From Tubiluchus corallicola (taxonomy: Eukaryota > Animalia > Priapulida): a stretch of 64,000 nt of DNA. Positions within the stretch are counted from its first letter, which is position 1; every line of letters starts with the position of its first letter. Below are positions 9,255 to 61,977 of the stretch, piece by piece. The stretch is taken from assembly GCA_030141605.1 (NCBI GenBank), contig JAQGDQ010000108.1, positions 124,001-188,000 of the forward strand, in the 5' to 3' direction. The notes beneath the pieces were generated by a model that saw only the letters and a program-made list of their open reading frames with translations, was not told the DNA's origin and did no database searches. The position numbers and the translations under genes are program-made.

Positions 9255-9409
9255 CTATTATGTTCCTAGCTGCTGCCCGAGCTTTTCGGTACAATTCAGT
9301 GTCTGGCGGAGGCGATGGTTCTGGCACTATTTCCTTGGCTACTAGTTCAGCTTTGCCCAGTTCAAGTCTTTGTTGTAGTTGCTGTGAATTGGCTTCTAAC
9401 TCAGTGATT
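9255..9409 (-). CDS. CLHC1/TSNAXIP1-N-like protein, exon 3
   Basis: TTGTTCTAG| acceptor phase 2 (RITELEANSQQLQQRLE, coiled coil), donor AG|GTGATA phase 1. Confidence 0.68.
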
Positions 9410-11127: not shown

Positions 11128-11202
11128 CTCTTCAAACAAATGCTGAGAAGCTGTATATTTCTCCCTTAGACTTTCTTCTTCTCCTATCTGCTTCTCATCC
11201 AT
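11128..11202 (-). CDS. CLHC1/TSNAXIP1-N-like coiled-coil protein, exon 1 (MDEKQIGEEESLREKYTASQHLFEE)
   Basis: ATG at 11202, donor GAG|GTAAAC phase 0, in frame with the next exon. The true start is uncertain because of an in-frame TGA at 11218-11220. Confidence 0.6.
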
Positions 11203-11961
11203 AACTTCTAAAATTTTTCAAAATGTTCTAAGTCGCTTAAAATTGGGCATTATGCGTATTTGGTGTAGGAGATTGATTTGTTGAAGCATCACAATGGCAG
11301 CGTCTTTTTGATCGTCGAATATATCTGTGGATGACGATTTCGCGATTTATGCAGACCTACAATGTTCTAGTAGACTTGCGCCTACTCTAGGCAGTAATAG
11401 CAAGTATACTGGTATGTTAGCGTTCACTGTGTAATAAAGCACTCATTATATGACATGTTACGTAACAAAATACTACATTATATAAGCAAATCACAAAATT
11501 CGCCATTATGAAAGAAATTACATATCATTACACATTTGTAATAAACCAGAATGTAACAAAAACCGTGCACTATGTAGCAGAATAACGTGGGTTGGGTCAT
11601 GATTTGTGCCTAGGTCTTGTCAAGGTCTGGATGTCAAGATTATTAGACAAAGTCAGTTTTTTTTCTTTTCAAGATGTGAGTCCATCTCGATCTGTTTTAC
11701 TGACTTGTCAGAGGTGTGATCTCTCCGAGCCTGACCTGTCAGAGGTCTGCTTTGGCTGCATTTGTCTTACACACAGATAGATATTTTTGGATCCGGTACG
11801 AATTGCTAGTTTTTGGTTAATGGTTATGTTGTTGGGGCAAGTTATTGCAACCAGTAAGTTCCATCGCAAGAAGTTGAAATCTCACACACACATGTAGCGT
11901 CCTATGGATTATAAGGAGGCCATATAGGGGTCCAATTTTTCCATTTAGATTTCTGACAGAT

Positions 11962-12066
11962 TTTCACAAAGCCGTCACTAACTTAACGACGTCGTTATTA
12001 ATAGTTAAGTGAATGTGATAACCACGTCGTTAATTTAGTGATGGCTTTGTGAAACCGGCCCCTGGG
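11962..12066. mobile_element. Hairpin MITE (Harbinger-like end ...GTGAAACCGGCCCC) nested in older inverted-repeat elements
   Basis: tttcacaaagccgtcactaacttaacgacgt / acgtcgttaatttagtgatggctttgtgaaa are near-perfect inverted arms. Confidence 0.7.
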
Positions 12067-14411
12067 CAGACCTGAGACGGATCAGATATCAGACAGATCA
12101 AACGAAAGACTTGCCACGCACCACTGACAGATCAGATTTCAGACTGATGATGTCAGGTCAGACTACAAACAGACCAGCCACAGAGCAGATCTCTGATAGA
12201 TCAGACTTTAAACCAACTAGACCTGCGAAAGAGCAGCCATAAATCAAACCAGAGGCGGGCCCACTTCTAGAACAAAAAAAAACTGAGCAAGCCCAATGCT
12301 CAGACAAGAGTGAGAGTATGACAAAACCCAACCATAGACTAGAGCAACCTGTTACACCACGCATCAATTTTGTTACATAATGATTGTTACATAATGACGT
12401 AACATTAGTTGACGAATTTTGTGTTTTGCTACGTAACGCAACAGTTTGTGTTACGTAATATTGCATTGTTACATAATGGGCCTTTTGTTACATAGTAAGC
12501 CTTAACAATGTTACAGTTTGTTTGAATCCGTTTGGCGCTCATCAGGCGCCGCATGTTATGTGTCGTTCTTGCTCCTATTATTTCTCCTATTCACTTTTGT
12601 TTTCGTTTTATTATTGTGGCGAACCTTTTCGCAATAATTTTCACGACGGGTATTTTTAATTATTAGACAAACAAGTTTCTTGTTGCAATTTCAGGTGGCA
12701 CCACTTCCATTTCTAAAAAGATCGTGGTCTCATATTCATCGTAAACGAATGGCTCATCTTCCTTGACGTCGTTTCTTGTTTCGCCTGAAGCCGTGTCTCA
12801 TTATTCTCTGGGTAACTCGACACCACTTGTTCGTCAGCGACTCTGCACGGATGCAAACAGATCGTAATTACTGCCAGAATCAGGAATCTGACACGTAGAT
12901 TAATAAGCAGACTGCTCGTAATTCTAGTTTGATGGTCGCGCAATATGAAACCCTTTACGGAAATGGAAGGAACAATGACAGTTTTAACTATCTATGGGGT
13001 TTCTTGCAGTGGATTAGTTTGAATGCCATGTGTATGTAAGCAGCGCGAGGTCAGTATTAGTTGTTTATTAGCTAGTGATGGCTAGTTAGTTTGAATTATA
13101 GGTATTGATTTAAATTCAATTATATTCATTTTAATTTTAGTCGTGCTTTCGTGGAGTAAGTTTAAATAATGCAAATACGCTGTTTTGTGCCCTTTACTAT
13201 TACAGATTCAGTTAATAAACTGACTAATAAATTAATTAGACATTTGCTGCTCGTCTGTTTATCTTATTGATCAATTTGATGAGAGGTAGACTGACGCCTG
13301 ACGCCAGACACAGTGACTCACTGATGACGGACCGACTAACTGTTTGGTTCACTAAGAAGTTATTATAAATAACGAAACGATCGGCCAACTGACTAACCGA
13401 ATGACCAGCTGCTTGTCTCATTGACTATGTTACAGTCTCGTACTTGATTAGCATCAAGTAGCTGACAAATAGAATTATTATTTATAGGCTGTTTGGCTAA
13501 CAACAACTGCAGTCAACAACTGATTCACGTAACACAACAACATAATCCATTAGAAACACAATGAAGATGCATTATGTCTACCCAGCACTTGCTTCCGGAC
13601 ATTTTCTACGAAACTTGATTCCTGTGACACAAAACGTTAATTAGACTGTTCTCATTCGTATTCGTCTTTTAAGGTGGAAATCAAAGAATGTCCTGCTGAG
13701 TCTGCTTGACTGACGAAATTCTGACGAGTAAGAAACAATGAATAAGATCCCGAGGTCTCGGCATAATCAGATCAGTTCACTCACCGCAGAAATACTACGA
13801 GGATGAACGTACAATTTTTGACGTTGCAGAAGTTGCAGATTCTGATGTTGTAGGCACGAGGCAATGGGTGCTGAGTTTGCATTTGGATAGTTGTAGCGGA
13901 ATATGTTTAATTTCAAAAACAATTTTCTCATTTGAGAAGTTGAACCGTCAGTGTATAAACCATTTTGAACGTACGCACATCCTTCGTCAGTGGAAAAAAG
14001 CCGAAGTGGTGCAGCAGTAAAACCTCTGGCCGTTCATTTACGAAATTAGTAAATTCATTTACTAACTATCCCAGTATTGTGTAACATCGCTACCAATGGA
14101 CCCATCACCCTCCAGCTACCTCTTCTGCACACGTAATCCAATACTATTCCTTAAACCAGTTAACGGATCTGGAGCCTGAACCTTACATGTACAGTGTACA
14201 CTACAAAAGTGAACTGAATCTGCTAATAGAATTGTATTTTCCGTTGTTACCTTCATTAAGATTGTTACCGCCACTTATTAATGTCACGAACTCGTGAATG
14301 GATTTTTACACTCCATATTTTAGAAATTCTTTGGTCGTATTATGATAAACTATAATGATGAAGCTCCAACGGGTATTTGAGGTAAATATGTTGGCGTTGC
14401 AAATGCTAGGA

Positions 14412-15250
14412 GAGTCCGGTGAGTGGTAGCACAGCGCAGTTATGCACATAAAAGTAACAGTAAAATCGTTAATAGGTATTTAGGACCAGACAATAGGAAT
14501 ATACTACGCAGAGTATACGCAGTATATTCCATTCTGTGTTCAGAACAAATTGAGTATCTCTTACCAGAGAGAATAAAGGTGGCATAAACATGTATGATAC
14601 GCTTTCCGTCTAACTTTTTTCTGTGTCATTACAATGTTGTTCTGTAAGTATACTTACACTTACACAAAATAAATTTGGTAAGAACAGGTAACAAATAATA
14701 AAGGATTTTTCCTTCTGGCCTCTGTTAGTGGTTTGGTAATTTTAACAAGAAGTCGAGCAGTCTTTTCAATTATAACGCGAATCTCCTTGCCACGTGGGTT
14801 ATCCTTCCCGACTGCATGGAATAAAGTTAGTGAAGAGAAGGGCTGTCGTGGCTTCTATGAGATAACTATTGTTGTCGCGAGTATTGTCGTCAACCAGTTC
14901 TTTGTTGTGGCCTGCCTTCTTAGAAGTCTTACTGTCAAATGCTTAGAATCTTCATAATATGTGGGGATTAAAATTTCTACCCAAAGATTATCAATTGAGC
15001 TTGTATACCTTAATGTTATCAATGTCACTCTTTCTATTGGCCTAAAATCCAAAAACCTTTGTGAGCAGAATTTGCTTTCACCTGCGTAATCAGCTCGAAA
15101 TCATAGACAGACATGCTTGGCATGTCTTTAGTAGCAGCGCAGATTCTTCAGAAGTTATCGCTGCTGCTATTCAAAGACATGCAACACGAAGTTCGTTGTT
15201 ACGCGAATTTGATGGATTTTTTGGTTCTTTGCTTCTTAGCGTCATCTGCA
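14412..15250 (+). pseudogene. Decayed tandem duplicate of the GRL gene (upstream region plus part of exon 1)
   Basis: Aligns by eye to 16615-16895 and 17303-17850 (e.g. aaagtaacagtaaaatcgttaa; ggattaaaatttctaccc; gttacgcgaatttga). The start-codon region is deleted, frameshifts split it into ORFs 14733-14957 and 15061-15285, and no exons 2-4 are seen. Confidence 0.88.
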
Positions 15251-17032
15251 TCTATAACTACGATGTGATGGCTTCGATAGTATGAGTACGACTTAAAAAT
15301 TGAGTTCATTACCTCTAATACCATATTATTTCAATTTATGAATCAGTTCAATATACTGTGCTGTGCTGTCTATTGAAATGCGAAGAGAGCGCCAACAGTA
15401 TAAGTTCATTTAACCACAATAAAAATTGCCATAACAGCAGTTAGGTGATCTTCTTGAGGACCATTTTTAGACTTTAGGATTATGCCATTATTAGCAGACC
15501 ACAAAGTGTACGGAACACCTGGGTAACGACGACCCCCTTCCCACTGGCTTCGTGCCTCTGCAACAGAATTATCTTCAACATTACTGTAATCACCCCTGAA
15601 TTAAACATTAAGAAATATAAGCAAAAAAAGGAAGAGGGCCGCACACAGTTTTTGCAAATCGAAGAACTAGCTAAAAATAAAATATACCGGAATACGTTTG
15701 GCGGTTTCTGTGTTTGTGTACAATTATGACGGAGGGAATGAGCGTCCTGAAATTCTGGCTACCGAGCAGCAGCCTGAGCTGATGACATTGATTGATAATT
15801 CAACTGTGATAATGCTGATAAAAATTTAGTGATACTGAAGTTAGGACAGTGTTGCTTTTGAGTGCCTGAGCATTTACTGTGAATAAGTTATCTCACTTCG
15901 AAAGATAAAATTTCATTTTACAAATTGTATTGTTTTCATTTCGAAACACACATATATGAGGGTAACATAATCTTTTCAGTGCTTAGTGCCTGTTCAAATC
16001 TTAATCTGGCCCGTTTCTGTTTCATCTGCAAGCACAGAAGGACTTGAAAGGCCAGCATGCTCACAAAACAACGGAAGAGAATGTTGCCTAAGGTAAATAG
16101 AATTACATATCAGAAAAAGTGCAGAAAAACGTTGACACATTTGGTGATTTTTGTCAGTAAGGAAAAGAATTGAAGAGAACTGAGCTTATGGGTACGAAGA
16201 AAAGTCACTCAGTAGACGAAGACCTAGCTGAGTAAACAAAAGTGACTCTGTTAACGTTTGTCGTATTCTTGTGAGTTTCATTTTGTTACTTACTGAAAGC
16301 CTGGAAGATGCTAAAATGGGCAATGTATTTAATGGTGACATTTGCGCCATCTGGTGCACGTTAAATGCACTTTTTTGGTTTAAACTACAAACGTTTGATC
16401 TTTTACTTTCCTACATTTTCAATACTAGTAGTATTGTGCTTTGAGGATATTCAAAAATACAAGTTTACAGCATAGGCAAGCTATATCCAGATATTATGGA
16501 TATGCACATAAAATCTACGGATTGAGGCTATGCATATGAATGTGAATTGTCATATTCTAAATAAATGAGGCAAATATGCTAGCGAGACCAGTGTATATAC
16601 TTGTGAGACAACATACTCCAGTGAGTGGCAGCAAAGTACAGCTGCGTACGTAAAAGTAACAGTAAAATCGTTAACAGATATTTAAGGCAAATTATATCTC
16701 TCTTACGTGCAGGGCACAGTGAATATGGTGGCATAAATAAGTATGACAAGCGATCCATTTCACATCTGTGTCACTACAGCTTCCTGTACGTATACAAACC
16801 AGATGTTCTGGGCTTCCATGTCATTACAATGCACTGTAAGTCTACATTCATAAAATAAATTTGATCAGAACAGGTGACGAAGAATGACAAATAATACGTG
16901 AGACAGGAACAAACACTGAAAACTGCAGATACTTGATGCTAATCACACACTAAAGCAGGCAAAAGAAAGGAGTTGAAAAAATGTGTGCAGTCGCTATGTT
17001 GAAAGAGCTGCAGAGTGAATGAGAAGTTCAAA

Positions 17033-18004
17033 ATGAAAATGCAAGAAAAGAAAAATAATAAAGATGAACGTGCGTGTCAAAGCAATGATATCACAGTTTT
17101 ATTCTTTTTCATGCAAGCTAATGGCTTAATGTTTGGAAGCGCATTGACTGGGTCAAGAATTAAATGTCTGCTCCTGCACATTTACAGCTCTGTTTGTTGT
17201 TGGGTCACCTGCTTCTTGACAGTGTGTAAAGTTGTCGATGCAGTGCTTTATAGTGAAAACAACTTTGACAGCTCTTCTTTGATGTCTGCATCGGCAATTC
17301 TTTCTTTCCTTCAGGCTTCTGCAAACGGCTTCATAATTTTGACAAGAAGTGGAGCAATCTGTTCACTTACAACACGAATAACCGCGTCATGCAAACCACC
17401 CTTCCCAAATGCTTGGAATGATGTTAGTGAAAAGAAGAGCTGCTGTGGCTGCTATGTGATGATTACTGTTATCACGATTATAGTCATGAATCAGCTCATT
17501 TTTGGAGTTTACTTTCTTAAATGTCTTGCGTCAAATGCTTTGGATCTTCATAAAATTATCGGATTAAAATTTCTACCCGAAGATTATCAATTGGCATTTG
17601 AATACTTAGTAGTCGTGAATGGGATGCTTTCTATAGCAGTAATACATTACCCCAAAGTTCTTGTGTTCAGCATTTGCTTTCACCTCTACAAGCAATTCCA
17701 AATTATAAATACAGATGCCCAGGATATCGTTAGTCGCAGTACAGATTCTTCAGAAATTATTAATGCTTTCACTCGAAGACACGCATCTCGGACTTTACTG
17801 TTACGCGAATTTGAGGGATTGTTTAGTCCTTTACTTCTTAGCATCATCTGCCTTGATATCGCTGGTGTGAGTTTCCACATTTATGCATTTTTTTCTGCAA
17901 CACTTGACAGTGGAATGTTTGCCATCTCATATGTTATATACATATTCGTTATAACATGCAGTTCCATTATTCTTATCGTCGGCTGCATAAGACTCCACGA
18001 AGAG
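17033..18004 (+). CDS. Gustatory receptor-like (GRL / 7TM ion channel) protein, large exon 1
   Basis: 972-nt ORF with about six hydrophobic segments, no signal peptide, and GR-like motifs (ICFHLYKQFQIIN, RRH..RTLLLREFEGLFSPLLL); donor GAG|GTTGGT, phase 0. First ATG at 17033. Confidence 0.88.
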
Positions 18005-18050
18005 GTTGGTTCAAATCTATATTTAATTACTATGCTTAATTGAATGTGTA

Positions 18051-18058
18051 GAGGGAGG

Positions 18059-18139
<81 letters not shown>
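18051..18139. repeat. (GA)n microsatellite
   Basis: Directly visible, GRL intron 1. Confidence 0.95.
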
Positions 18140-18140
<1 letters not shown>

Positions 18141-19220
18141 AGTTAGAGAGTATTAGATGCAAACAGCAGAACGGTACAATTAAAGTGGCTATCGCAGGAA
18201 CAGAACTGTGTATAGCTACGAACAGGGTGTTGTCTTGTCGTCACCATTGACACTGCCACTGCCACCGCCACCACCAGTACCAGCAGCACCAACGACATTA
18301 ATACCACTACTACTCTACATGAATAGGATAAACTAATATTTGCTTTAACGCAAGTGTAAATAATGTGGAAGCCAAAATTGGGGTGCTCCGGACAACTCGT
18401 AACTTTACGCACCTTTCGACGGCAGTATATTTTGAGTTTCGCTAATTGCAGCCAAATCGTTAAGTACACGTAATTGCGGTACTTGCATTACACCTAAATC
18501 GCTCACGCATGCGGACCCTAAGTACATATGCTTTGAGTGCTACGTGAATCGTGAGTTCCTTAAGCATACCTAAATCGTGCGTACGCACAAAGCGTATGCT
18601 CAGCACGGTATATGAATCCGAGTCCAAGACCTGAAAAAATACTTGTTTGACTCCTTCGACAAATTCAAAGCCATAGTTAAATATTTTGTATTAATTTGTA
18701 AACGACATCGCATCAAGGGGAAGAGTTGTTAATCTAAGATGTTACTGTCAGTTCAGTAAGTTTCTCCCAGTAAGTCCCTGTAATATCAAATTTATACTGT
18801 TTAAACAAAAATGTGGTTTTTACAATTCCTCCTCTTGCACTGAGTGCCGCATTCTTGAGGTTTTTGAAGTGGTAATGTTATGTTTTGAATTTAACAAAAG
18901 AATTATACAAAATAACATTTTGAGCTCTCGTTAGAAGATTTCATAAAAACATTTAGTTTCAGGTTTTCAGCACGCTTTCTGCTTAGAACAAGCATTGCTA
19001 AGAATTAGTCGAACACACCGCATTTTATAGTTGTTTTCTTCTGCCAGTCATGCCGGTGCGAAACTACAGTTTGAAATAACGAATTGTATTGTCGGCTGTT
19101 TGTTACCTCATCTGAACTTCCCGATTACGCATATTTTCATTATTAGTAAGTAAATTTTAAACGGAAACAGACACTTACTTCATTCTTACTGTGTTGAACA
19201 ATATTTATTTTTTTCTACAG

Positions 19221-19289
19221 GCCCACAAGTTGGTAGATATCTTACTTGGAATTGAAGCATCAAGGTTAGACCAAACGGGAAATTTTGAG
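19221..19289 (+). CDS. GRL exon 2 (AHKLVDILLGIEASRLDQTGNFE)
   Basis: TTTTTTCTACAG| acceptor, GAG|GTATTT donor, 69 nt, phase 0/0. Confidence 0.82.
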
Positions 19290-19819
19290 GTATTTTCCCT
19301 CATCTCAGGCTTTTCGCTTTTCCTGTGTGCAACGCGCATGCTTCAATACTATGAATGTTACATGATTGTGGTTGAGTATTTAGTTTATTTTTGCACTCTT
19401 TATATGTAGTGGCATGTATTTTAATTATATTAGTTTACAAAAATTATGATTGTGAAAACTGTTATGATGTTTTTTAATTACTAAGATAATTATAATTATT
19501 AAATGCATATGTCTTAACAACGTTAACATCATTTTATGCACACTGTTTCATAGAATGCATTCACATCCTAATGTTAGGCAAGAGAGCGTGTCTAAGAGAC
19601 GGCGCTTTAAAGTTGATAAGAATTTAGATTCTTATCTCGTCACAGCCCATTCACATTGAGCAAATCTTGTTGATGATTGCCGAATTATATAAAAACATTA
19701 GAGTTTGCAAGGATGTACTAGTTCTGGCAGGGCCTATATATTGCGTATTCAAAAGTGGTCGTTTAGATAAAAATTGTTGTTATTATTCACTTTTACAAAT
19801 ACGTAATGGAATTTAATTT

Positions 19820-20377
19820 TTGAAAGAAAACCTGACTCCAACTTAAACTGTTAAGAACAATCTACCCTATAAAATATTGAAAAAACATACTATCTTTTCA
19901 AGAATGACACGTTAAAGAATTATTATCCCATGACGTAATTTCTTGCGGCTAGTTCTTTCCTGTTGCTTGCATTTCACCATTCGCTAGTTAGGCAGGCACT
20001 AGTGGCCGCATCTGGGAAACACGTTGCACAAAACAGGCGTTCTACCTCTCAGTTTAGAGGTGTTCATTCGTGACGTGGTGCACATGTTCCAAAGCTCTTG
20101 CGTGAGTATATCACACTGCGTATTATACAGTAACACTGTATTTCAATTTTCTCTTTTGCAAACACGTGCTACACGCTCGTAGTATGTTTGTGCTGTTGAA
20201 AATTATGTTCAGTCGTGATGTGGTCACCAGTTGTGCTCGGCTGCCGTTAATTAAGTTGTTAACCTATTATTTAATAACCAGAAACGATTCGGCATTATTA
20301 TGTGTCTTGAAATGTATTCTTTTTTACCGTACTTCAAAATGGGGTAGGATATGAAAAATAATCTTGCTTTTCTTTAA
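19820..20377 (+). mobile_element. TTAA-MITE copy B in GRL intron 2
   Basis: Colinear with 25696-26312 (aaagaattatta, ccattcgctag, gcaaacacgtgc, atatgaaaaat..tctt..ttt.ctttaa), more diverged. Confidence 0.75.
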
Positions 20378-20582
20378 ATACGTATTTAACATTCAAATTA
20401 TGCGCTATCACGTTTGAGTATTTGAAGATTTTTAAAATTAGACATTATTTAGGATAGACAACATTTCGTAGTCAATTCTGGGATTTCTACAATTTTTAGT
20501 TTTTTTACACATTCAATGAAAACATTATATCCGTTCATGATTTATTACACAACAATGATCATTTTGGCTTCTTTTATTAAAG

Positions 20583-20672
20583 GTAAATAGATTTGCGACT
20601 CGCCTTGCAAACTCTCCAGTTGGAGTTACTACAATGAACTTCTTTCTCATCAATAGGAATTTCGCGGCCGGG
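20583..20672 (+). CDS. GRL exon 3 (VNRFATRLANSPVGVTTMNFFLINRNFAAG)
   Basis: 90-nt phase 0/0 exon matching the GR 'L...P.G.T..nFF.INR' pre-TM7 motif; donor is GGG|GCAAGT (GC-AG). Confidence 0.85.
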
Positions 20673-20884
20673 GCAAGTATATTTAAAATAGTCCGGTGTA
20701 TAAATATATGTCTGTTAAAATCTTGACTCTACAATAACTTTATTGGTTGCAGTGAAATCATTATTGGTTAAGAACCTCCCACGTTTGTGTGCTTTCGTTG
20801 CCATTGTTCTTAACCTTGATGAAAATAAATTATGACTGTGATATTTCGACAACGACGATGGCGTCCCACAGTTACCATAATGCC

Positions 20885-21003
20885 AATAACGATAACGATG
20901 ATAATGATGATGATGATGATGACGACGACGACGATATGATGATGATGACGACGATATGAGGATGATGATGATGATGATGACGATAATAATGATGATGATG
21001 ATG
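20885..21003. repeat. (GAT/GAC)n microsatellite
   Basis: Directly visible, GRL intron 3. Confidence 0.9.
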
Positions 21004-21550
21004 CAGTTTATGTTTTTGAATTAGCCAAAGTCTCTGGGAGAATTTTTCCAAGGTTCAGTAGACTACTGCATCTCAAAATTGATCATCTGTTGTTTTACAT
21101 TCTTACAGTCTTACTGTCCCAGTAAAGATTTTCGATAATGTTTAATTCTTCCTTCTTTGTGCAAAAATACGCTACGATAAACTATACGTTTAATAATTTT
21201 TGGCTAGGTAATACATGTATGTAATACAGAGTAAGGCTGATCTTAGGTTACTCACATACAATTTCTTTGCAAATTGTTTCATTTGCAACATGATAAATAG
21301 ACAACAATGCTCTGTATACAAGGCAAGTCAAATTTTAGTGATGAATTTTGTAAATTGTTTGTTAAATTTATTTACTGCTGAAAAGTCGTATTTTTGGGTC
21401 ACAACCACTCCACGACTTTCAAAGGTCTTTTGGTATAGTATATATCTCAAAGATTTCGGGTTTCTATGTCAGTTATTAACGGTAATAATAATAAAGTAAT
21501 TTGTCGCTCACTTCTACTGTTTGGTTATTTTAATTAGAATTGAGAAAGAA

Positions 21551-21556
21551 GAGAGA

Positions 21557-21646
<90 letters not shown>

Positions 21647-21664
21647 GAGAGAGAGAGAGAGAGA
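21551..21664. repeat. (GA)n microsatellite
   Basis: Directly visible. Confidence 0.95.
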
Positions 21665-21788
21665 AATGAGGAGAGATTTCTGAATGACAATTTTTTTGTG
21701 TTTTGTTCTCTGAATATATAAACATATTGAAAGCTTACAGCAAACCAAATCTTTGTTACATATACATTACGTACACATGTAAATTACA

Positions 21789-21838
<50 letters not shown>

Positions 21839-22060
21839 AATATGTATATATATATATAACATACATATATGCAATATACAATATATATATTTTAATTTGT
21901 GTTGTATATATATAACGTATAAATACATATGTACATGTAAACTACATTTATATTATACATATTCAATATATATGTAACACAGATTTGATTCGCTGTAACC
22001 TTATTATTTCTTATCATGACTGTTGTCTTTTTCATTGCGTGAATGTTTTTCTTTTTGCAG

Positions 22061-22186
22061 ATTTTGAGCGCCTTATTGACTTACATCATTCTCATTGCGC
22101 AGTTTAAAGACACACCACCGACCACCTGTTTTTGTCCACTGCAATTCCAGGATCAGGAAAATACAACTGCAGCGATATTACCATAA
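22061..22186 (+). CDS. GRL terminal exon 4 (ILSALLTYIILIAQF...AAILP*)
   Basis: TTTTTCTTTTTGCAG| acceptor; encodes the TYhhhhhQF TM7 signature of the GR/GRL family; TAA ends at 22186. Joined protein 418 aa. Confidence 0.9.
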   Translation: MLSALLTYIILIAQFKDTPPTTCFCPLQFQDQENTTAAILP

Positions 22187-25695: not shown

Positions 25696-26312
25696 TTAAA
25701 GCAAACCGGACCCAATCTTAAGTTGTAGGTCAAAACAATCTGCTCTTTAAAATATTGAAAGGTAACATACATTTTTTTTTCAAAAATGACTCACGTGAAA
25801 GAATTATTACCACGCAAACACAATTTCGCCTTCGCACAACTAGTTCTTCGCCGTTACATGCATGTCGCCCATTCGCTAGCACTAGCGCCCGCATTTCGGA
25901 AACGCACTGCACAAAAAACAGGTGCTGTATCTCAGCTCAGATGGGTTAGTTTGTGACGAACTACACACGTTCGATAGCTCATGTGTGAGCACAGCGGTAA
26001 ATTTGAAATTTGAACTGTTATCTTAAAACTTGCCTAGTTTTAGTACTACACACTGAATATCTTACAGTAGCACTGCACTCCAATTTTCGCTTTCGCAAAC
26101 ACGTGCAGCACGCTCGTGGAATATTTTTGCTGATGAAAATTATGTTAGTTTGTAATGTCATCAGTAGGTGGGCTCGCCCGCCGTTAGTTAAGTTTTTAAT
26201 CTATTATTTAATTACGAGGAACGCTTTTGCAATATTAATTGTGTTAAAATGTATACTTTGTTCGGACTTGAAAATAGGATAGCATATGAAAAATCATCCT
26301 GTTTTCCTTTAA
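25696..26312 (+). mobile_element. Non-autonomous TTAA-flanked DNA transposon (Kolobok/piggyBac-type MITE), copy A
   Basis: TTAA|AGCAAACCGGA ... TCCTGTTTTCCT|TTAA: TTAA on both sides, short imperfect TIRs; three further copies in the window. Confidence 0.75.
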
Positions 26313-28546: not shown

Positions 28547-28733
28547 CTAATGATGCGAAAACATCATGTTGTTATAATGCGAAAGAGCAGTTTGACCAGC
28601 GGTCAACAGACCATGCTCGTGCTTGACCAAATTAGCCAAAGAAAACTTACAGTGTCCGTTGTATTGCACCATTCTATCCGGAACCTGTCCCGCTATGCAG
28701 CTGTTCTCTGTACCAAGGTGGTGGCCATCCATA
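28547..28733 (-). CDS. Six4/5: Six4/5 probable terminal exon 2 (MDGHHLG...NNMMFSHH*)
   Basis: Acceptor TTGTTTCGTTTTAG| at 28733 completes phase 2 (GG+T=Gly); 187 nt open to TAG; His/Met-rich tail; joined CDS 897 nt = 298 aa; AATAAA on the minus strand near 28061-28066. Confidence 0.75.
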
Positions 28734-30879
28734 CTAAAACGAAACAATAACACGAGTATGACGAAAAACTCTTCAGCTCTATTAACGCACTCTGTGATTC
28801 CAAAACTAAATTAACATGCTAGTACTTACTCTACAACTTCTCATTTCTGCTAGCTAACTTGGAACTGTTATTAATTAGCTTGTTTCAGCACAGTAATTAA
28901 GCACGTAGTAACCACTCAAGCATTCTCGATTAATAAAAAAAATGTCAAAATAATGGCCCATGACCTGTGCTTAAAACTGAGCGAAAAATAACATCATGTC
29001 GATGTATAATGAAAGTAGTTTAAAGAATAAGTATACACAGTGTATATATGGAAATTAAATTTTGTATTCGTAAACGATTTTGTATTCGTAAACGAAGTGA
29101 AAACACACGAAACAACTTGTAAAAATAATTGTTAGATTTTGTAGATTTGATCAGTTTGTCATAACAATAATTTTGGCAGCTCGTGCCGTGGATATAATAT
29201 TTCTTATTGCACTTATGCCTATATTTTATAATTATAATTAAATTACTGTCATTTCAAAATTCCACGAACAGCGAGAAATTATTAGCAGCTTTTGAAAGGC
29301 TTCGGGCACACGTCTCCACCAATAGAAGATACCTTCCATTAGAGCACAATTTCACAATTATGTTCATTCCTTTATCTCTCTAACGTATGTCCCAGTTCTT
29401 ATAAGGTTTCGCAAACCGCCATGAGCTCAAGTGGACCAATAAATTGTCACTAAATGAATGGTGCGATTAACTGCCAAGATATCGCCATTTTCGCTTAAGT
29501 GAATGTCTCCCAAAAACTCTTCAGAATGGATATCATAAAAAATGAGTGCATGAGTGATCAAGTTCCTAGGTGAAAAGCAAAAGTGGTGAATCGTGTATTA
29601 CGCATTATAATAAACGTGAAGGGAAATATTTTAAAATGCAAATGTATCCTAGGACCAATGAGAGAATATGATGTTATATTATATTATGTAATTTATTCAT
29701 TTTACCAACAAATGACATAGTTACAAACAAGAAAACTAAACCTTACAGGACAATACTGCAAAGTACAACAACAAAAATAATTTTATAATATTAGAAATAA
29801 TTATATAATGTTAACAATAATCAGACAAGCAACAACAAAAATATTGAATGAAGAAAAAGAATTTTACTGCAGGTTGTCCCATTAGTTAGAATAATTATAA
29901 TAATATTTATATGACGTGTTGCTGAGCCCTCAAAAGCTTAAGCTTGTAAGAAAGACTCTGATAACGAAACAGAGATTAGATTAGCTAAGATAAAAAAGAG
30001 GAGAATGAGCTTGCTAGTAGTGACAGCGAAAAAGTAGAGAGAAGCGTGAACAAGGAGATAATGACATGATAATCCTGACCATGTTAACTAAAACTAAGAT
30101 TACCAGAGATGTGCAACGTGAAACGTACCGGAAAAAATTTGTCTTTATATGTGCATACTGCACATTTGGAAGTGAAGTTACAATTATACCAATTTTTATC
30201 TTATATTATGACTTCAACGTCCTTTGTGTGGGCTAACTTGTGCAATTTGTAATGCTATTATAATTTTGTTGGTCAATAATTAAAACACACTGCAAGCGAA
30301 TGAGCACTTAATCTTGAGAGGTACTTTCTCAGACAGTAAAAACGTTGGTTACTTGACTTTTCATCGACAAATTTTGGTGGTACAGTTATGAAATAAACAA
30401 CCCTAACCCTAATCCATCTCAAGACGTAGATACTCAAACACTCACTATGTTTTAAAACGTTGTTTCAATACACATAATTATTGTAAACATGCATACTCTA
30501 CTTTATATTTTGTGAGTAATACCTTATAAGTAATTTCACACCTTCTGCAAATAAAATACAGAACAAATAATTCTTATTGTAGAATATCTAATCATCGCGC
30601 GATAAAGAGAAACAGAAACTAGAGGTTGTATAATTACGATCTCAAACCATTGGGCACAGCTGTCTCTCCGCCCTTCTCAAAGGGAAGGCAGACAGTTAGT
30701 AATTTCCCTCTGGTTGTTGTGGGATTTCATTAATTAATAACAGAACGTGGTATCGCAGTTAGACCTTATACGGTGAAAATCGTCACTTTCTAATTATGCT
30801 CATCTCTGCAGATAATTAATTGTATAGGGAAACATGAGAGGTAATGTTAGTTTACTCTGGTCGATGCCTCTGTTCACAA

Positions 30880-30880
<1 letters not shown>

Positions 30881-30973
<93 letters not shown>
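30881..30973. repeat. (TAA)n microsatellite
   Basis: Directly visible, Six4/5 intron. Confidence 0.95.
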
Positions 30974-30974
<1 letters not shown>

Positions 30975-31677
30975 TTCTCTCCTTTCTTTCTTTCTTTCTT
31001 TCAAATATTTTAATCATTTTTTGGCTAATCACATAACAAAAGCTAAACCGTCTTTAAAGATTGCAAAAGGCATAGAAATCGTCCGATACACCATTAGATA
31101 TACCAGTCAGCAAATATGACAGATTTATAGAAACAAGTGCGTTAGCACTTCTACTTGGAAGAGGTAGCAAATCATTTAAATACAGGATAGGATCAGTCCT
31201 GTGTGTTAGCGGTTTGGGCTGTCAAACACCAGAGTATTTAATTTTTCATTGTACGTTGCCATTTGTTAGACAAGATACAAGAGTGAATCTCGAACGCGGC
31301 TTAGAAAATAATGATATTCGGACCACTTACAGAAAGAGAAACACTAATGTAATTAAAATGTATATAGATATTGTAAAAGAACTTATTGTAAATGGTCTTA
31401 TTGTAAATTGAGTATACTGGCATACTGTTTATATACGAATGATATCAACATATAATTATTTATGTATGTATCTTGTATAAATTGGTAACTGTAAAGATAA
31501 ACTGTGAAGAATTTAATGTACGTAATGTAAGCATTTATTTAACATATTTGTACTTATGTGCCGTGCAAATAGAGGGCTTACTGTATTATTTTGAATAAAG
31601 ATTTTTAATAATAATAATAATTTCTTTCCCCCTCGTGTACACGCTCTGCCTCTTTCTTTTCTTTCCCTCACTCTCTC

Positions 31678-31721
<44 letters not shown>

Positions 31722-32128
31722 ACTCTCCCCCCTCTCTCTCCCACTCACTCTCTCCTCTTGTCTTCCTTTCTTTCTGTACTCCCATTTTCTTCCTTCTCTC
31801 TTCAATCATTTTGCTCCGCGTCAGATTCAGGTTTTTCTTCTGGCACAATGGTGCTTATAACAGAACAAAGTGTGATAAAATAACCCGTAAGATGAAACCT
31901 ACATTTACTTGTCATTTATGAAAATCTGTTTCCAAGCAGCACGATAATTAATTCTAAAATAGGTTTAGGGTTACAGGACGAAATCTGAGATTCGGGGAGT
32001 AAAAAACAAACAAATCCACCTCTTGAACATGGCGACGAAGAGCTTCAGTGGCATTTTACGATTTTTACTCGTTTAATTTTTTTAAGAAAAACATTCAAAT
32101 TTTATCTCTAAGCGCGTATGTATATATT

Positions 32129-32941
<813 letters not shown>

Positions 32942-34110
32942 ACAATCTCTTCTCCTACCTTTTCTTCCAGTCTTTCTCTTTCCTTTCACTCACTCTTTCT
33001 TTCCTTTTCTCCTTTCTCTTCCTTTCATAATAATAATAATAATCGCGTTTAATAAAGCATCATCAGTGCATTTTATATCTTTCCATTAAGACTGATACTT
33101 CAGCTCCTAAATGAATTTAAAAAGTGCTGTTCCTGTGTAAAGTTTTCATTACATGTGAGATACAACCAACGCTTGCAACCAAAAAAGTTTCGTTTACAGT
33201 AATGACTGTATGTATATATATATATATATATATATATTACTAATAGCCGCCAATCCGATCAGTCTGTATAATAATTACATGTATTAGCTATAATATTAAT
33301 TATAATTCTGCGTCGGAAATCGATTTTCTTTCTTCTCTAGTGAAACGTCATGTCGTTTTTATTAGTTGACCTTTTGCCTGTGTGATGACTATCATTGGTT
33401 CTCCATTCAAAATTCTAAGTAATTAACTTGCAAATGTAAATACCAAAACTGTTTTTTGGATTTGCGAAGGCGTCAGTCTGTAGGACTGTTGTTAGTAATA
33501 TGTCTTGTACAGTTGCCCCTATAATACGATTAAAATAGAAACATTTCTATTACTTGGATATTTTCTGTGTATTGAATGAAGCAAAATAAGCCAATAAGTT
33601 AAACATCGATTTTCAAATTATTTGTAAGTGGTTAAACAACTCCAAAGCAAGAACAACGCATTGGCTAAATGGATAAATGAAGCAAAAAAATAATAATTGA
33701 TTGATTTATTAGTTAACTACTTTTTAGCCAACCTTGAAAATGTATTATCTGAAAAGAATTGAATTGAATGTATTTTTAGTTTTTTGTTATAAAAACTCAC
33801 TGTAATAGATATAAAAAATGTTATAAAAAATTGGTCTGCAGAACCTTTTATGTAAAAAGTACAGGTAAATGATTTTGTACTAGCTTTAAACGTATGTATC
33901 GAAAAAAAAATGGAAAGGGAAGAAAAAACACTACGTAATTAATGTAACTTACGCAGACAGATACACAATTTGATGATGAAAGTATAAAACAATAAAATAC
34001 TATGATGAAAATTACTTATACTAAAAATGCCCATAGTCATTAGTAAAGCAAGCGACAACTTCTGTTGTTAAACTCAATGTTTTTAATGCAATTTGCAGAA
34101 CTGGTCTTAC

Positions 34111-34820
34111 CCTTGTCTGTGAAGATGTGGTGTTCTATCTCTTTGACGACGGTTTTTAAACCAATTCGAAACCTGGGTGAGGGTCAATCCTGTCTTCTTC
34201 GCCAAACTTCTTTTTTCGTCGGGTGTTGGATATCTATTTTGTTTGTAACAGTCTTTCAGCGCTGTTCTGGACTTTTCCTTGAAACAATATACGGTTTCCT
34301 CTCCATCCCAGATCGTCTTCGGAAGTGGATACTTTCTGCGAAGCCTATATTTGTCCACTGCTCCTAGTGGTCGACCTCTGATTTTCTCTGCTTCGAGGTA
34401 GTGCGCTTTGTACCACATGTTTTGCAGTTCATTGTGATAGCGCTCATCGAACGGATGACTTTCCAGGATAGTGTACAACAGTCGAAAGTTACCACGATGA
34501 AAAGCGACTGTGGTACGGGCCCTAAGGACGGCTTCACTGCCCTGTAGGAGCTCAGTTGGCGGCAAAGACCAGAGAAAACGGGCAAGTCGGTCGATGTTGC
34601 CTCCCTGCTGTAAAGCCTCACAGATACAAGCCACCTGTTCTGGACTAAATATTAAATGTTTACGATTACCTTGATCGCCATTGTTTTCATTGTTGGCTGT
34701 ACATGGTGAGGACGAGTGCAAATCATTGTCGATTCGGCTACCAGGACGCGCATCGTCGCTTAGATTTTTACCTTCCACTTGGTCATCCATGTACAAGTAT
34801 TTTGCCTTTTTGACATTCAT
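34111..34820 (-). CDS. Six4/5: Six4/5 homeobox transcription factor, exon 1 (SIX domain + homeodomain)
   Basis: [64 protein letters not shown]; ETVY is diagnostic of the Six4/5 class. Donor GG|GTAAGA after 34111, phase 2. Confidence 0.97.
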
Positions 34821-56629: not shown

Positions 56630-56899
56630 TCATAAGTTCTGATAGTCGGAAAGAAGGGCATGCTGGTCATTTGTACTACTAACTACCACCGGGCCACCCA
56701 CTCCAGGTACTCCACCTACACCCATTGTGAGCAGTGCTTGTATTTGGTGTTGCTGAGCTGCGGAGTTCGTCATAGCACCGTACAGAGGATGATGTGACGT
56801 CACGTGATCAAGGAGATGCTTTGGACTATGTTCCCGAAGAGGTTCTTGATGTTGCTGATTCTGCTGTTGAAGCGGCTGCTGGTGTTGCTGTTGTTGTTG

Positions 56900-56933
<34 letters not shown>

Positions 56934-57023
56934 TGTTCTGGCGTTATTTCCGGTTTGGAGTCATCATCACTGGTTAGACTGGTGTGCAGCATGGAAGCAG
57001 CGCCTACAGCTGATTTTTCATCT
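56630..57023 (-). CDS. Six1/2: Six1/2 exon 2 (C-terminal region with polyQ, ends ALLSDYQNL*)
   Basis: Acceptor TTATTTTGCCCAG| at 57023 matches phase 2 (AG+A=Arg); 394 nt open to TGA at 56630; joined CDS 1008 nt = 335 aa. Confidence 0.88.
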
Positions 57024-60000
57024 CTGGGCAAAATAACAAAGAAAAATAAAGCCAGTGTTGCAAATAAACTATTTCTCCACAATTTCAAGCCAATTTTAGT
57101 TAATTTTATTTTTTGAAAACAATAATGTCTTTGCTCAATGCTTTGCATAATACGAAGTCCAGTAGGACTCTCATGGCAGACAAAGTTACGAAAACTTAAC
57201 TTGTCTAGTAATTATTGCATTTGTGTGAACAGATACGCGTCAAGGCTTAATAAATGAAAATCGGTCATCCTCTTCTATAGCTAGTGGTGAATTTTCTATA
57301 ATCAAAGCAACGGTTTATGAATTCTTGGTGTAAAGAATTCAGACTATTGCAATTAGCTTTAATCACAAACACAGCCATTTATATCAAATAATTGACAAGT
57401 TCGTTAATATTCAAAAATGGCAGTAATAATTAGTATTTTGCAAGCTCTGTTGCACAATTTTTTATTATAGTTTTAATCACATGAAAATTGCATGCAACAC
57501 CGGCACCCGCAAGTTTATTTCAGCTACAATATGACTGTTCTACAAGGGGAATGCGTGTTCAGCTTAACATACCGAATTTTAACACTATTAATTCGAAAAT
57601 GTGCTTATTCACTTAAAAACAAGCTATCTAAAAGTCGTAATGCTTTGGTGCTAAGCATATGGAACAATGAATATATAGCTTCGTTTTAGTTTTCCTTTTA
57701 AATTACTGTATATAACTGTACATATTGCAAATGAGAATGAAATGTCGGAGGAATACTGTATATAGTAGTGTATTTTATTATTTTTTGTAGGATGCTATAT
57801 ATTTTATTTTGTACCTTTTTAATCACTGTTTTATATGGAAGAAATTCTGAAATAAAGGTTTAAATTGAAAATTCAATTAATGAACAAAGCTATCAATAAC
57901 GTTACCGTGTTAATGAATTGTGGTCATGAAGGCAATGCATATAAACAAGTATCGACATTTTGATCATTTTTAAGCCAGACTATTAGCTGTTACAATTACC
58001 AGTAATACATTTTCTACATGACAAACAAAACATGCAGCATGGCATCTAACACAACACACGGAGCATGTGTTTCATCATTGCTTTAACTTCATTGTTGTTC
58101 TCCACATCACTTTCAATTATTAATCTGCTGTTCAGTGATTGTGCATGTACTCAATCCGGGTAAATTGTAGATAATAACAGGCTGTGAGAAACCCGCCGAC
58201 ACTTGTCTAATGTGTACACATATTAATCGATAATTCCTGAAAACGTGAAACCCTATAGGCCTGATCGAAATGATTATTGCTGAAAACTCTTCCACGGCTT
58301 CGCAATTTTGCACTGTTTCCGGAAAACGTATTTACTGAACAGTCTCTAGAAATACTGTACAACTGCACAGTGACTTACTTATAAAATTCGTTTATTTAAA
58401 ATAATATTATTAAATGATTTAATAAATAACATTATTAAATGATGTTAATGAGTCATGATAACTGGATTCAGGCTCGCAATGTGCGAAGCGTATAGAAATG
58501 ATGTAAGCTCGAAAAATCTGTAAAAACGCAGCGCCAAAACTTCAACTATATAATAAAGATACACGTAATATGAATAAACTTTACAAAATGTATTAAGTAT
58601 AAGTATTAACTTAAAAGTAACAGTAAAGTCATCAAAGACTCGTAAATTTGTCAGATATACATGGAAGAAAAACAAATCATTTTGCTAGTTAAATTACTAC
58701 GAAAATGTTTTCTTGACATCAAAATGTTAAATAAATTTAATAGTGTATGTGCGTGAGTTTTGTACTTAGTAAAAGTAAACTATACAATGGAGAAGATGTC
58801 AATACATGCTTACATACATTTAGCGTAATTGTAATTCACCTTGTTTCTGTATAAATACGTATTTCACACATTTAATTTAAATAAAAAGATGATTTGAGAT
58901 TAAATCATATAAATTAGTTGTAAAGGATATTTTTAAAGCACGTGAGTTTCTAAAGCGGTAATTATCATTTGGAACTTTGAAAGATTCATGTTGTTAATTT
59001 TATATAGTTAGGCCTGTTATAACAGAAAACAGCAAACGAAAAAAATCTTAAAACGTCTAGACCAAATAAATGCTTGCCCTACCATAATATCAAAACTGTA
59101 AAATACAGTAGTTTTATGTTCTATGTAAGAAAACTGTTTTGTAAACGCGTCTGCCTGTTTTGTAAATTTCAGTTCAATGTGTTCTTGGCACTTATTTTTC
59201 AATTTATAAGTCGCAATGAATATTTTTTACTATTTATTATTTTTCTATTATGCGCGAACAAATCGTTCAAATTAAAATCTTGGAATCGATATCTATATGC
59301 CACTGATATGAAAATCCTGAGATTTATTGTATATAGGCCTAAACGAGTTTGTTCGCAGTTTTCTGAAAGTGACAGGGCCTGAAAAAGGTTTGTGTATTTC
59401 AACAATTTCTGAAAATCTCAATATTATTGCTCAAGTTGCTTGTTACTGTACAGTATACAAGGCATGTTTTTAGTTTGAATTATTAATTAAAACAGAGCTG
59501 TTTGATTCAACAATAATAGGCATGTTATTATGCATTAAACATAAAATCGATAGGTGAAGTTGTATTTATTGTACGTTTTCTTTAGCTGTGATTGATTTTT
59601 ACTTGAAATAGAGCGTCTGTGTTTACATAAGGTTTCAGTAACCGCAGGTGTAACCTCCCAGTTTAATTTTTAATATGCATGTATGGAGACGGATAAATGT
59701 ATGTGAACATTATGTGAAAAGTGCTCTTAAAATGATAGCGAAATTACTGTTATACAGAAAAGTGACGAATTTTAAATAGGTGCTAAACAAGAACAAAAAA
59801 GCTTGTACTTCCGAAAAATGACATAAAATTTTTTGTTTCCATTGTGCAGAAAAAAATTTGAGTTGGGTCTAAAATGTCCTATTATTAAAGTATAAAACTG
59901 TACCTAGAATATTTATGAGTATATATATATATATATATATATTGCTGAGTATATATTACAGATTTATATTGTATCGTTGCTTGCAATCTATATATAGGTA

Positions 60001-61305
60001 ATCTAGATATGCTGTGACTAACTAATGGTATATGATATTGCGTTAAACATATTTTCTTGTGCAGTCTCACTTTCATAAAAAGCAGCAAGGATGGGCAAAC
60101 TTTATATTTGGTGAAAAAATTATTGTACACGCTTAATAGTATAAAAGCTTTACGTTGCTATTCTGTTTGAACTATTTTGCTTTATGTTGGATAATATCTG
60201 CGATTTTCTTTCAAAAGCTAAACGTCAATTATTGGTAGCGAGAATAACAAACAATATTCAAAATATGCCCGATTTTCAATACACTGACTTAGTTATAGCT
60301 AACTCACATGCACGCAAAAATGCGAAGTTACACAAGTAATGTCACGTATACATGCGTGTAGGGCAGGTATACCAAGGAAGCTAGAGGGCTAAATTTTATC
60401 TGAAAGGTCTCTAAGATAATCATCTCTGTTAGAACGGTTAAGTGCATTAGGAATCAGCAGTTGGTCGAATTAACGGAGTCCACGGAATTCCAACACACAC
60501 GCTAATTTTGGACGAGTGAAATATATGGAAAGCCTGGTGGTAACAAACGTACATTTTGCAAGTTCTTCTACACTCAAGTAAGGCTGTAGCACAAAATTAT
60601 ATTACAAATGTATTCGCAACTTCTTTAATGTTTACAGGTAAGCCTAAAGTACCATAGTAATAACTGTTAATCTTGTTTGTTTTTTTACCAGAAATCTCAG
60701 TCACATTATCTAATTTCCACTATAATTTAAAAAAATCACTTTCATAGATCTGTTTTAGTGATAATTTTCACGTTGCCACATTGACTGTTACAATAATTGC
60801 AAAGAAAAATATAGTATAGAACGCAGCCGATTATTGTATTTTCTTCTGTCATTAACAGACGCCCATGCAGTTCATAAATATTTCGTTTGGGTAACTAAAT
60901 TCATATGGACAATTCAAAAATGGCAACTCTGCCTAAAATTCAATAGATTATCCGCAACCTTGCTGGAAATGAGAAAAATAGATGTTTAAAACCGCAGCTT
61001 GCTATAGATTTCACTTTTGAACTTTTTTAATCTATCATTTTATTCTTATATTACCATAATATTTCTGCAATAATTCTGTTGCTGCTTGCTCCTCATTGTT
61101 AAATTGTCATCTACGTTTACTCCGCTTTATTTGACATTAACTAGTAGATTTAGGCCGCTTCTTTGCTAAACATGTATTTTAAGGGAAAGCATTATGAGGT
61201 ATAATTTTTGCAAACATACAACAGTTTAGCCAGATTTATAAGAATTATAATAATTTTATTCACTATTAATAACTAAATGATTCTTTTACTATATAAATCA
61301 AGTTA

Positions 61306-61977
<672 letters not shown>

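What the first reader, a model, noticed from the sequence alone, without database searches (positions are those of the whole stretch)
17033..22186. Complete gustatory-receptor-like (7TM ion channel) gene hidden beyond the ORF track, next to the Six genes
Seen: the 342-aa ORF is only exon 1; three small phase-0 exons (69, 90, 126 nt) complete a 418-aa protein ending in TYIILIAQF. Established: a large first exon, three 3' phase-0 introns and the TM7 TYhhhhhQF motif are hallmarks of the insect GR/OR superfamily and its non-arthropod GRL homologues, whose ligands and roles are largely unknown. Inference: an uncharacterised ligand-gated channel lying tail-to-tail, 6.4 kb from Six4/5, within reach of enhancers of genes that pattern sensory cells.
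Basis: partly seen in the sequence, partly recalled or inferred. Interest (0 to 1): 0.8.

Follow-up and report, generated by a model that had tools for sequence, protein, structure and literature searches.

The report
Priapulid worm taste-receptor-like channel gene
A four-exon gene, likely from a priapulid (penis worm), encodes a 418-residue membrane protein with the sequence signature and intron layout of insect taste-receptor ion channels and has a broken copy of its large first exon just upstream; it is likely a new but ordinary member of a known family, and nothing tested links it to the neighbouring Six genes.

Summary
The gene model holds: four exons (972, 69, 90, 126 nt), three phase-0 introns, 418 codons, no stop. 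TYIILIAQF lies six codons after the last intron, the position published for Gr genes; motif plus acceptor arose in 2 of 150 simulated windows. Corrections: 26 residues follow the motif, intron 3 has a GC donor, and 6.4 kb is stop-to-stop (starts are 17.8 kb apart). A language-model search ranks 7tm_7 clusters first (0.95). Pfam support is below cut-off, folds were inconclusive, no RNA holder was listed and sequence searches found no relative. Six4/5 groups with Priapulus (99/98), so the host is likely a priapulid. The scan reported this layout before, with intact exons, elsewhere in this genome and in octopus (unreviewed). Shared regulation with Six genes is untested speculation. Verdict: new member of a known family, in a phylum where my searches found no canonical GRL described.

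The parts
17033..18004 (+). GRL exon 1 (324 codons; predicted TM0-TM6: ligand-binding part and most of the anchor helices)
   Evidence: ESM Atlas first hit 0.95, cluster with 7tm_7 in 35% of members; 3' part hits Pfam 7tm_7 at E 7e-4, 19.4 bits, cut-off 26.6
19221..19289 (+). GRL exon 2 (69 nt, phase 0/0; predicted intracellular loop 3)
   Evidence: AG/GT sites, open frame; no Pfam hit on its own
20583..20672 (+). GRL exon 3 (90 nt, phase 0/0; predicted TM7a and hairpin), followed by a GC donor at 20673
   Evidence: weak Pfam Trehalose_recp match at profile positions 356-381 of 410, E 0.18, lost when intron flanks are included; no usable Atlas hit
22061..22186 (+). GRL exon 4 (predicted pore helix TM7b and 26-residue tail, stop TAA)
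22079..22105 (+). TM7 motif TYIILIAQF, six codons after the last phase-0 intron
   Evidence: same spacing as stated for Daphnia, insect and nematode Gr genes in PMC2680840 (passage)
14378..15268 (+). Decayed tandem copy of the upstream region plus exon 1 (weak similarity may run to about 15350): start codon deleted, frameshifts, a stop; no remnant of exons 2-4. Likely a dead alternative first exon
   Evidence: 73% nucleotide identity over 550 columns; block alignment, lesions and remnant search; nhmmer E 8e-78 and 2e-16
28547..34820 (-). Neighbour: Six4/5, coding exons 34111-34820 and 28547-28733
   Evidence: Pfam SIX1_SD and homeodomain; the exon-2 tail matches Priapulus caudatus Six4/5 at E 2.5e-12, next hit E 0.24; tree 99/98
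56630..61920 (-). Neighbour: Six1/2 (exon 1 to about 61307; exon 2 about 57023-56630, boundaries read by eye)

Best explanation
The four exons form an uninterrupted 418-codon frame for what is likely a gustatory-receptor-like (Class-A 7TMIC) subunit of a priapulid worm, predicted to work as a ligand-gated cation channel. By analogy with solved insect Grs, four subunits would assemble through the cytosolic ends of TM4-TM6 and TM7a; a small molecule would bind a pocket among TM1-TM6, all encoded by exon 1; and the pore helix of exon 4 would turn so that Phe392 leaves the gate and Gln391 lines it. Because exon 1 holds the whole predicted pocket and exons 2-4 the predicted pore, duplicating exon 1 with its upstream region would give a second receptor on the same pore exons. 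The copy at 14.4-15.3 kb is likely such an alternative first exon, now dead. Shown: exon frames, splice motifs, TM7 motif, the copy and its lesions. Inferred: splicing, topology, fold, gating, a sensory role (about 0.6 against developmental or internal sensing), and past use of the copy as an alternative exon (about 0.6). The position next to Six4/5 is likely incidental.
For: Motif with the gate residues Q and F intact, six codons after a phase-0 acceptor (null 2 of 150 windows). One large exon plus three small phase-0 exons, the layout of Gr39a (PMC2204066 passages) and of Gr genes generally. ESM Atlas on exon 1 alone, which lacks the motif: first hit 0.95, 208 of 256 features shared, all 10 best family-bearing hits in one family or clan, recognition 2613. 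Pfam 7tm_7 E 7e-4 on residues 210-324, profile positions 172-298. With hand-drawn helix limits, predicted inside segments hold 24 K/R and outside segments 3; inside loops are 35, 44, 54 residues and outside loops 10, 23, 7; the only N-glycosylation sequon is in the predicted outside tail. The one confidently modelled element is a long TM4-TM5 hairpin, pLDDT 77-88 at residues 221-250, where the anchor domain is expected. While the copy diverged 27%, the intact frame kept zero stops; neutral simulation gives P(no stop) 0.014, 0.000 and 0.001 at 0.10, 0.175 and 0.21 substitutions per site, 1000 runs each. The copy covers upstream DNA plus exon 1 only; 0 of 3 small exons left a remnant above shuffled controls in 11300-17000. 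Gating mechanism: PMC12635824 passages.
Against: No Pfam score reaches the curated cut-off; whole exon 1 gave no Gr family hit, exons 2 and 4 none, and none of 54 intron-region frames, including the three that carry exons 2-4, hit a Gr family. Hydropathy gave six regions above 1.6, not seven; TM2 rests on a low-confidence helix. No relative of exon 1 at E<=0.01 among 1,895 candidates or at E<=0.001 among 1.84 billion representatives. Donor 3 is non-canonical. dN/dS between exon 1 and the copy is 0.76 (bootstrap 95% 0.53-1.12), not clearly below 1. The last 50 codons and the donor of the copy are not recognisable, so it may never have been spliceable. The copy's single stop in residues 92-274 is not significantly fewer than neutral (P 0.08-0.33).
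Confidence: 0.85

Rival explanations
1. The same GRL gene, but the upstream copy is a partial tandem duplication that was never spliced to exons 2-4, or the remains of a whole-gene duplicate whose small exons have eroded. The locus is then a plain single gene with a fragment beside it.
For: dN/dS interval includes 1; the 3' end and donor of the copy are not recognisable. Degenerate pseudogene copies beside Gr genes are described in Daphnia (PMC2680840 passage). Exons of 69-126 nt could vanish at 27% divergence with deletions.
Against: The duplicated unit includes about 310 bp upstream of the start and runs through most of exon 1, the unit that duplicates at Gr39a. Only about 1.2 kb lies between the copy's last trace and the start of the intact unit, whereas introns 1-3 span about 4 kb here. 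An unreviewed note reports live alternative first exons on another piece of this genome (a lead, not support).
Confidence: 0.4
2. The GRL is a co-regulated passenger of the Six (SINE) cluster: it is kept next to Six4/5 because it uses Six enhancers and is expressed in Six-patterned sensory or developmental cells.
For: Stop codons are 6,361 bp apart and no other gene was seen between them. The SINE cluster is conserved across bilaterians (PMC10726417 passages). Sea anemone and sea urchin GRLs are expressed early in development (PMC7746228 introduction).
Against: The genes converge; the GRL start is 17.8 kb from the Six4/5 start, on the far side, and faces another gene whose start is near 11,200. 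The GRL has no detectable orthologue in two very large protein sets and a local birth-and-death history, which does not suggest an old conserved linkage. None of my paper searches (listings only, passages of one paper) mentioned GRL-Six linkage.
Confidence: 0.1
3. The gene is a recently silenced or mis-modelled GRL: exon 1 is real, but the small exons are not all used (for instance the GC donor is a disabling mutation), so no complete channel is made.
For: GC donor; exons 2-4 have little independent profile support; reading past donor 3 meets a stop after 17 codons.
Against: The GC donor has the otherwise ideal G|GCAAGT context typical of working GC-AG introns (recalled, not from a call), at exactly the phase-0 position needed; all four exons are free of stops and frameshifts.
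Confidence: 0.08
4. The protein is a seven-helix membrane protein of another kind (for example a divergent GPCR or transporter) and the motif is a coincidence.
For: Several GPCRs and ABC transporters rank at or above Gr43a in Foldseek lists made from low-confidence models, none significant. The motif alone is common by chance (88 of 150 simulated windows).
Against: All Atlas rows with a common family are Gr, Or, DUF267 or DUF3537 sets; charge bias points to an inside N-terminus, opposite to GPCRs; motif and intron position coincide.
Confidence: 0.04

Closest known systems
Animal gustatory-receptor-like proteins (GRLs) and arthropod Grs, Class-A 7TMICs (Pfam 7tm_7 PF08395, Trehalose_recp PF06151); PMC7746228, PMC9998090, bioRxiv 10.1101/2023.08.30.555482
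   Same: TYhhhhhQF motif, three 3' phase-0 introns with the last six codons before the motif, about 400 residues, predicted inside N-terminus and long TM4-TM6.
   Different: No sequence relative found; below the Pfam cut-off on the pieces tested; GC-AG third intron; likely host phylum Priapulida, for which I found only a GrlHz-set and a PHTF protein in the supplements searched.
Drosophila Gr39a (also Gr23a, Gr28b): alternative large exons on three shared small exons, with pseudo-exons in some species; PMC2204066
   Same: A large exon for six TM helices, duplicated in tandem upstream of three small exons for TM7; one large exon degraded by frameshifts, stops and deletions.
   Different: Only one large exon is intact here, so no alternative products are expected today; past splicing of the copy is inferred; likely an independent duplication in another phylum.
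Solved insect channels: Orco, MhOr5, BmGr9, DmGr43a, DmGr64a (PMC12635824)
   Same: Gate residues Q and F of the pore helix are present; a long TM4-TM5 hairpin is predicted.
   Different: Fold match not shown here; ligand, partners and ion conduction unknown.
Priapulus caudatus XP_014670003.1 (GrlHz set) and XP_014662892.1 (PHTF set) in the supplements of PMC9998090
   Same: 7TMIC superfamily members already listed from a priapulid.
   Different: They belong to the conserved GrlHz and PHTF lineages, not the canonical GRL set; I did not align them with this protein.

Membership tests
Gr/GRL (Class-A 7TMIC) | TM7 motif (T/S)Yhhhhh(Q/K/E)(F/L/M) | tested here: met
   TYIILIAQF at residues 384-392; the only strict match in the six frames of the window; definition from PMC7746228
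Gr/GRL (Class-A 7TMIC) | [quoted passage not shown] | tested here: met
   Met in the gene model; spacing from PMC2680840; junctions not confirmed by RNA
Gr/GRL (Class-A 7TMIC) | Seven TM helices, N-terminus inside, inside loops longer than outside loops | tested here: inconclusive
   Six hydropathy regions above 1.6 plus a weaker seventh helix; K/R 24 inside against 3 outside with hand-drawn limits; no topology predictor was available
Gr/GRL (Class-A 7TMIC) | 7tm_7 profile match or homology to known Grs | tested here: inconclusive
   7tm_7 E 7e-4, 19.4 bits against cut-off 26.6 on part of exon 1; Trehalose_recp E 0.18 on exon 3; none on whole exon 1; ESM Atlas 0.95 to 7tm_7 clusters; the full-length protein was not scanned
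Gr/GRL (Class-A 7TMIC) | Orco/Gr fold with anchor domain and split TM7 | tested here: inconclusive
   Exon-1 models at mean pLDDT 41 and 43; no significant Foldseek or VIA-align match
Gr/GRL (Class-A 7TMIC) | Tetrameric ligand-gated cation channel activity | not testable with these tools
   needs expression and electrophysiology
Gr39a-type alternatively spliced locus | Tandem large exons, each with its own upstream region, ahead of one set of small TM7 exons | tested here: met
   The copy covers upstream DNA and exon 1; no remnant of exons 2-4 in 11300-17000
Gr39a-type alternatively spliced locus | Each large exon has its own start codon and splice donor and is spliced to the shared exons | tested here: not met
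   The copy lacks the start and a recognisable donor and has frameshifts and a stop; at most a former member, like the Gr39aA pseudo-exons
Regulatory block of the SINE cluster | Conserved linkage and co-expression with Six genes | not testable with these tools
   No genome held, no orthologue found, no RNA holder listed

The most novel reading that the evidence does not exclude
Priapulids have a hidden, fast-evolving family of canonical gustatory-receptor-like channels that profile searches and annotation miss, and they diversify it by birth and death of alternative ligand-binding first exons on shared pore exons, as insects do; this locus records one such birth and death. The scheme would then be a recurring or ancestral ecdysozoan way of building chemoreceptor repertoires.
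Probability: 0.4. Interest if true: 0.55.

Novelty: new member of a known kind. Interest (0 to 1): 0.33.

Why it matters
GRLs are already known from annelids, molluscs, nematodes, onychophorans, echinoderms, cnidarians and placozoans, so one more is expected. Its value is taxonomic and methodological. It would fill a gap at the base of the moulting animals, where my searches found no canonical GRL described. It keeps the full ancestral motif and intron set while being invisible to phmmer and nearly invisible to Pfam. It gives a seed for finding the rest of the priapulid family and for asking whether exon-swapping Gr loci predate arthropods. It does not make the ligand question for GRLs more testable than other members do.

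Tried and rejected
Own genome: none held, so paralogues and synteny could not be searched. RNA: no RNA holder listed; the one run listed, a 13-million-letter contig set that may not be RNA, laid only 5 short pieces at 11962-12055 and 19960-20363, none on an exon and no joints; this says nothing on expression. Sequence searches with exon 1: 0 of 1,895 candidates at E<=0.01, 0 at E<=0.001 in 1.84 billion representatives, one chance PDB hit at E 2.3; exon 3 against PDB none; 0 of 4 ORFs found by exact look-up. With no homologues I could build no family profile and no deep alignment. Two AlphaFold2 models of exon 1 (1 and 3 sequences) were low-confidence; Foldseek gave nothing at E<=0.001 (Gr43a 8zdz at rank 7, E 1.0, and rank 6, E 3.2, TM about 0.2, among unrelated helical proteins), and VIA-align gave generic helical hairpins, best Z 9.6, with no Or/Gr chain among the 50 rows shown. 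A Pfam control on 54 open frames between exons 1 and 4 was uninformative: no frame hit a Gr family, not even the three exon-bearing ones. ESM Atlas on exon 3: no usable hit. Idea that Six4/5 splices on from a GTAAGT inside exon 2 and could enclose the GRL: rejected for the coding sequence, because the read-through tail aligns with the Priapulus C-terminus; untranslated exons are not excluded. Idea that the host is a lophotrochozoan: dropped. Further copies of exon 1 in the window: none by tblastn, phmmer over 2,159 frames, or nhmmer.
Full report
Observation. Each is a multiple of three and together they give 418 codons and one stop. Three details need correcting. The motif TYIILIAQF is at residues 384-392 and is followed by 26 residues. 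The third intron starts with GC (G|GCAAGT), not GT. The 6.4 kb to Six4/5 is stop to stop (6,361 bp), while the start codons are 17.8 kb apart, and 44.9 kb for Six1/2. The '342-aa ORF' matches a count from a GTG at 17015 that reads 12 codons into intron 1.

Is it chance? The strict motif occurs once in the window's six frames. A slightly looser motif alone is cheap (88 of 150 Markov-simulated windows), but together with an in-frame AG acceptor exactly six codons upstream it appeared in 2 of 150, anywhere on either strand. Six codons is the spacing given for Daphnia, insect and nematode Gr genes (PMC2680840, passages). Four open phase-0 internal exons pass modest splice filters between exons 1 and 4; the two modelled ones have the best pyrimidine tracts. 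The small exons have little independent profile support: exon 3 alone matched the C-terminal end of Trehalose_recp at E 0.18, exons 2 and 4 matched nothing, and in a control on 54 frames none hit a Gr family, including those carrying the exons. No RNA holder was listed, so the splicing is a model.

Family. Exon 1, which lacks the motif, is independent evidence. In the ESM Atlas its first hit scored 0.95 with 208 of 256 features shared, the 10 best family-bearing hits all fell in one family or clan, and the rows shown are Gr, Or, DUF267 and DUF3537 sets plus one unnamed arthropod set. Its 3' part matches Pfam 7tm_7 at E 7e-4, 19.4 bits, below the 26.6 cut-off; whole exon 1 gave no such hit. Hydropathy shows six regions above 1.6; with a weaker TM2 taken from the predicted helices and hand-drawn limits, 24 K/R fall in predicted inside segments and 3 outside, and inside loops are the longer ones, as described for 7TMICs (bioRxiv 10.1101/2023.08.30.555482, passages). 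The fold could not be tested: both exon-1 models were poor (mean pLDDT 41 and 43), only the TM4-TM5 hairpin was confident, and three structure searches gave nothing significant. No sequence relative was found in either large protein set, although Priapulus proteins are in the first. Of the four criteria listed for Gr/GRL membership in PMC5203786 (passages), motif and introns are met; topology and profile match lean in favour but are inconclusive.

Host. Six4/5 exon 1 scores best against Priapulus caudatus (391 bits, next 372). The C-terminal tail outside the conserved domains matches only Priapulus among 240 fetched Six proteins (E 2.5e-12, next 0.24). In a tree of 32 rows (the 2 window proteins plus 30 of the 240, picked by me for taxon spread) the two group at 99/98. 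No kinorhynch or loriciferan was identifiable among the rows, so 'priapulid' is likely, not certain. The same alignment confirms that the Six4/5 coding sequence ends at 28547, so the convergent arrangement is right.

An open frame at 14682-14957 is part of a second copy of exon 1, 73% identical over 550 columns. The duplicated unit starts about 470 bp upstream of the ATG (16566-16878 aligns with 14378-14692), has lost about 410 bp including the start codon and the first 90 codons, carries frameshifts and a stop at codon 170, and fades after codon 279. Exons 2, 3 and 4 left no remnant above shuffled controls in 11300-17000, and there is no further copy in the window. This is the geometry of Drosophila Gr39a, where large exons for six helices are duplicated in front of three small shared exons and some have decayed (PMC2204066, passages). 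I first read the copy as a truncated pseudogene; the alternative-exon reading came from an unreviewed note on another piece of this genome (e1-10608727), which I could not check on its own DNA. My tests leave it open: dN/dS is 0.76 (0.53-1.12) over 209 aligned codons, the last of them poorly aligned; the copy's donor is unrecognisable; and its single stop is not significantly below neutral expectation. The comparison does show that the intact frame has been kept open: under neutral drift of 0.10-0.21 substitutions per site, zero stops had probability 0.014 or less.

Mechanism. In solved Grs, S7a and the cytosolic parts of S4-S6 form the anchor of a tetramer, S7b lines the pore, Phe closes the gate and Gln replaces it on ligand binding in a pocket among S1-S6 (PMC12635824, passages). 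This protein keeps Gln391 and Phe392, so I infer the same working principle, with exon 1 setting the ligand and exons 2-4 the pore. The ligand is unknown. Non-arthropod GRLs also serve light sensing, motor control and early development (PMC7746228, introduction read), so a chemosensory role is the likeliest reading (about 0.6) but not the only one.

The Six link. The SINE cluster is conserved across bilaterians (PMC10726417, passages), and two of its genes are here; Six3/6 was not seen in the window. Nothing I could run ties the GRL to them. Its start faces away, towards a small coiled-coil gene beginning near 11,200, and it is a fast-evolving orphan with a local duplication history. I give shared regulation about 0.1.

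Literature. Searches for priapulid plus gustatory or chemoreceptor terms (listings and abstract starts, 20 of 29 and 20 of 101 papers listed in the last two) showed no paper on priapulid GRLs. 'priapul' does not occur in the main texts of PMC5850775, PMC9998090, PMC6150509 or the 2023 bioRxiv paper, nor in the 8 supplements of PMC7746228. In PMC9998090 I searched 14 of 53 supplementary files, some cut when stored: the only Priapulus entries were one protein located in the GrlHz set and one PHTF, none in the animal-GRL set. The other 39 files, the bioRxiv supplements, Robertson 2015, Saina 2015 and subscription papers were not seen and may list priapulid GRLs. PMC11682238 mentions priapulids only for ionotropic receptors (passage).

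Verdict. A real and likely functional GRL gene: a new member of a known family, modestly interesting for its phylum, its invisibility to standard searches and its dead alternative first exon. Interest 0.33.

Noticed in passing
window 14378-15268 (+): Decayed copy of the GRL upstream region and exon 1 (taken into the main report).
   Followed up: yes
window about 8178-11202 (-): Probable four-exon coiled-coil gene of roughly 280 residues (exons near 11128-11202, 10478-10670, 9208-9410, 8178-8553; boundaries by eye), head-to-head with the GRL; two of its frames gave no Pfam hit above cut-off.
   Followed up: partly
window 7050-7931 (+): 293-codon open frame rich in K, N, S and T, no Pfam hit; converges on the coiled-coil gene with about 250 bp between the ends of the frames.
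   Followed up: partly
window 28547-61920 (-): Six1/2 and Six4/5 in the same orientation, Six4/5 downstream, about 22 kb apart; no third Six gene found in the window.
   Followed up: partly
window 19823-20381, 25698-26316, 36853-37217, 52066-52667: A dispersed repeat family of about 600 bp (65-78% identity), one copy in GRL intron 2.
   Followed up: no
window 28547-28733 (-): Six4/5 exon 2 contains a perfect GTAAGT donor-like site about 85 nt in, so an alternative C-terminus is possible; the read-through tail is the one conserved in Priapulus.
   Followed up: partly
window 17033-22186: The protein has 18 cysteines, with clusters in TM1, the first inside loop (one CxxC at 137-140) and a pair in the C-terminal tail; unreviewed notes on sea-urchin GRL-like proteins mention zinc clasps, but no such arrangement was tested here.
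   Followed up: no
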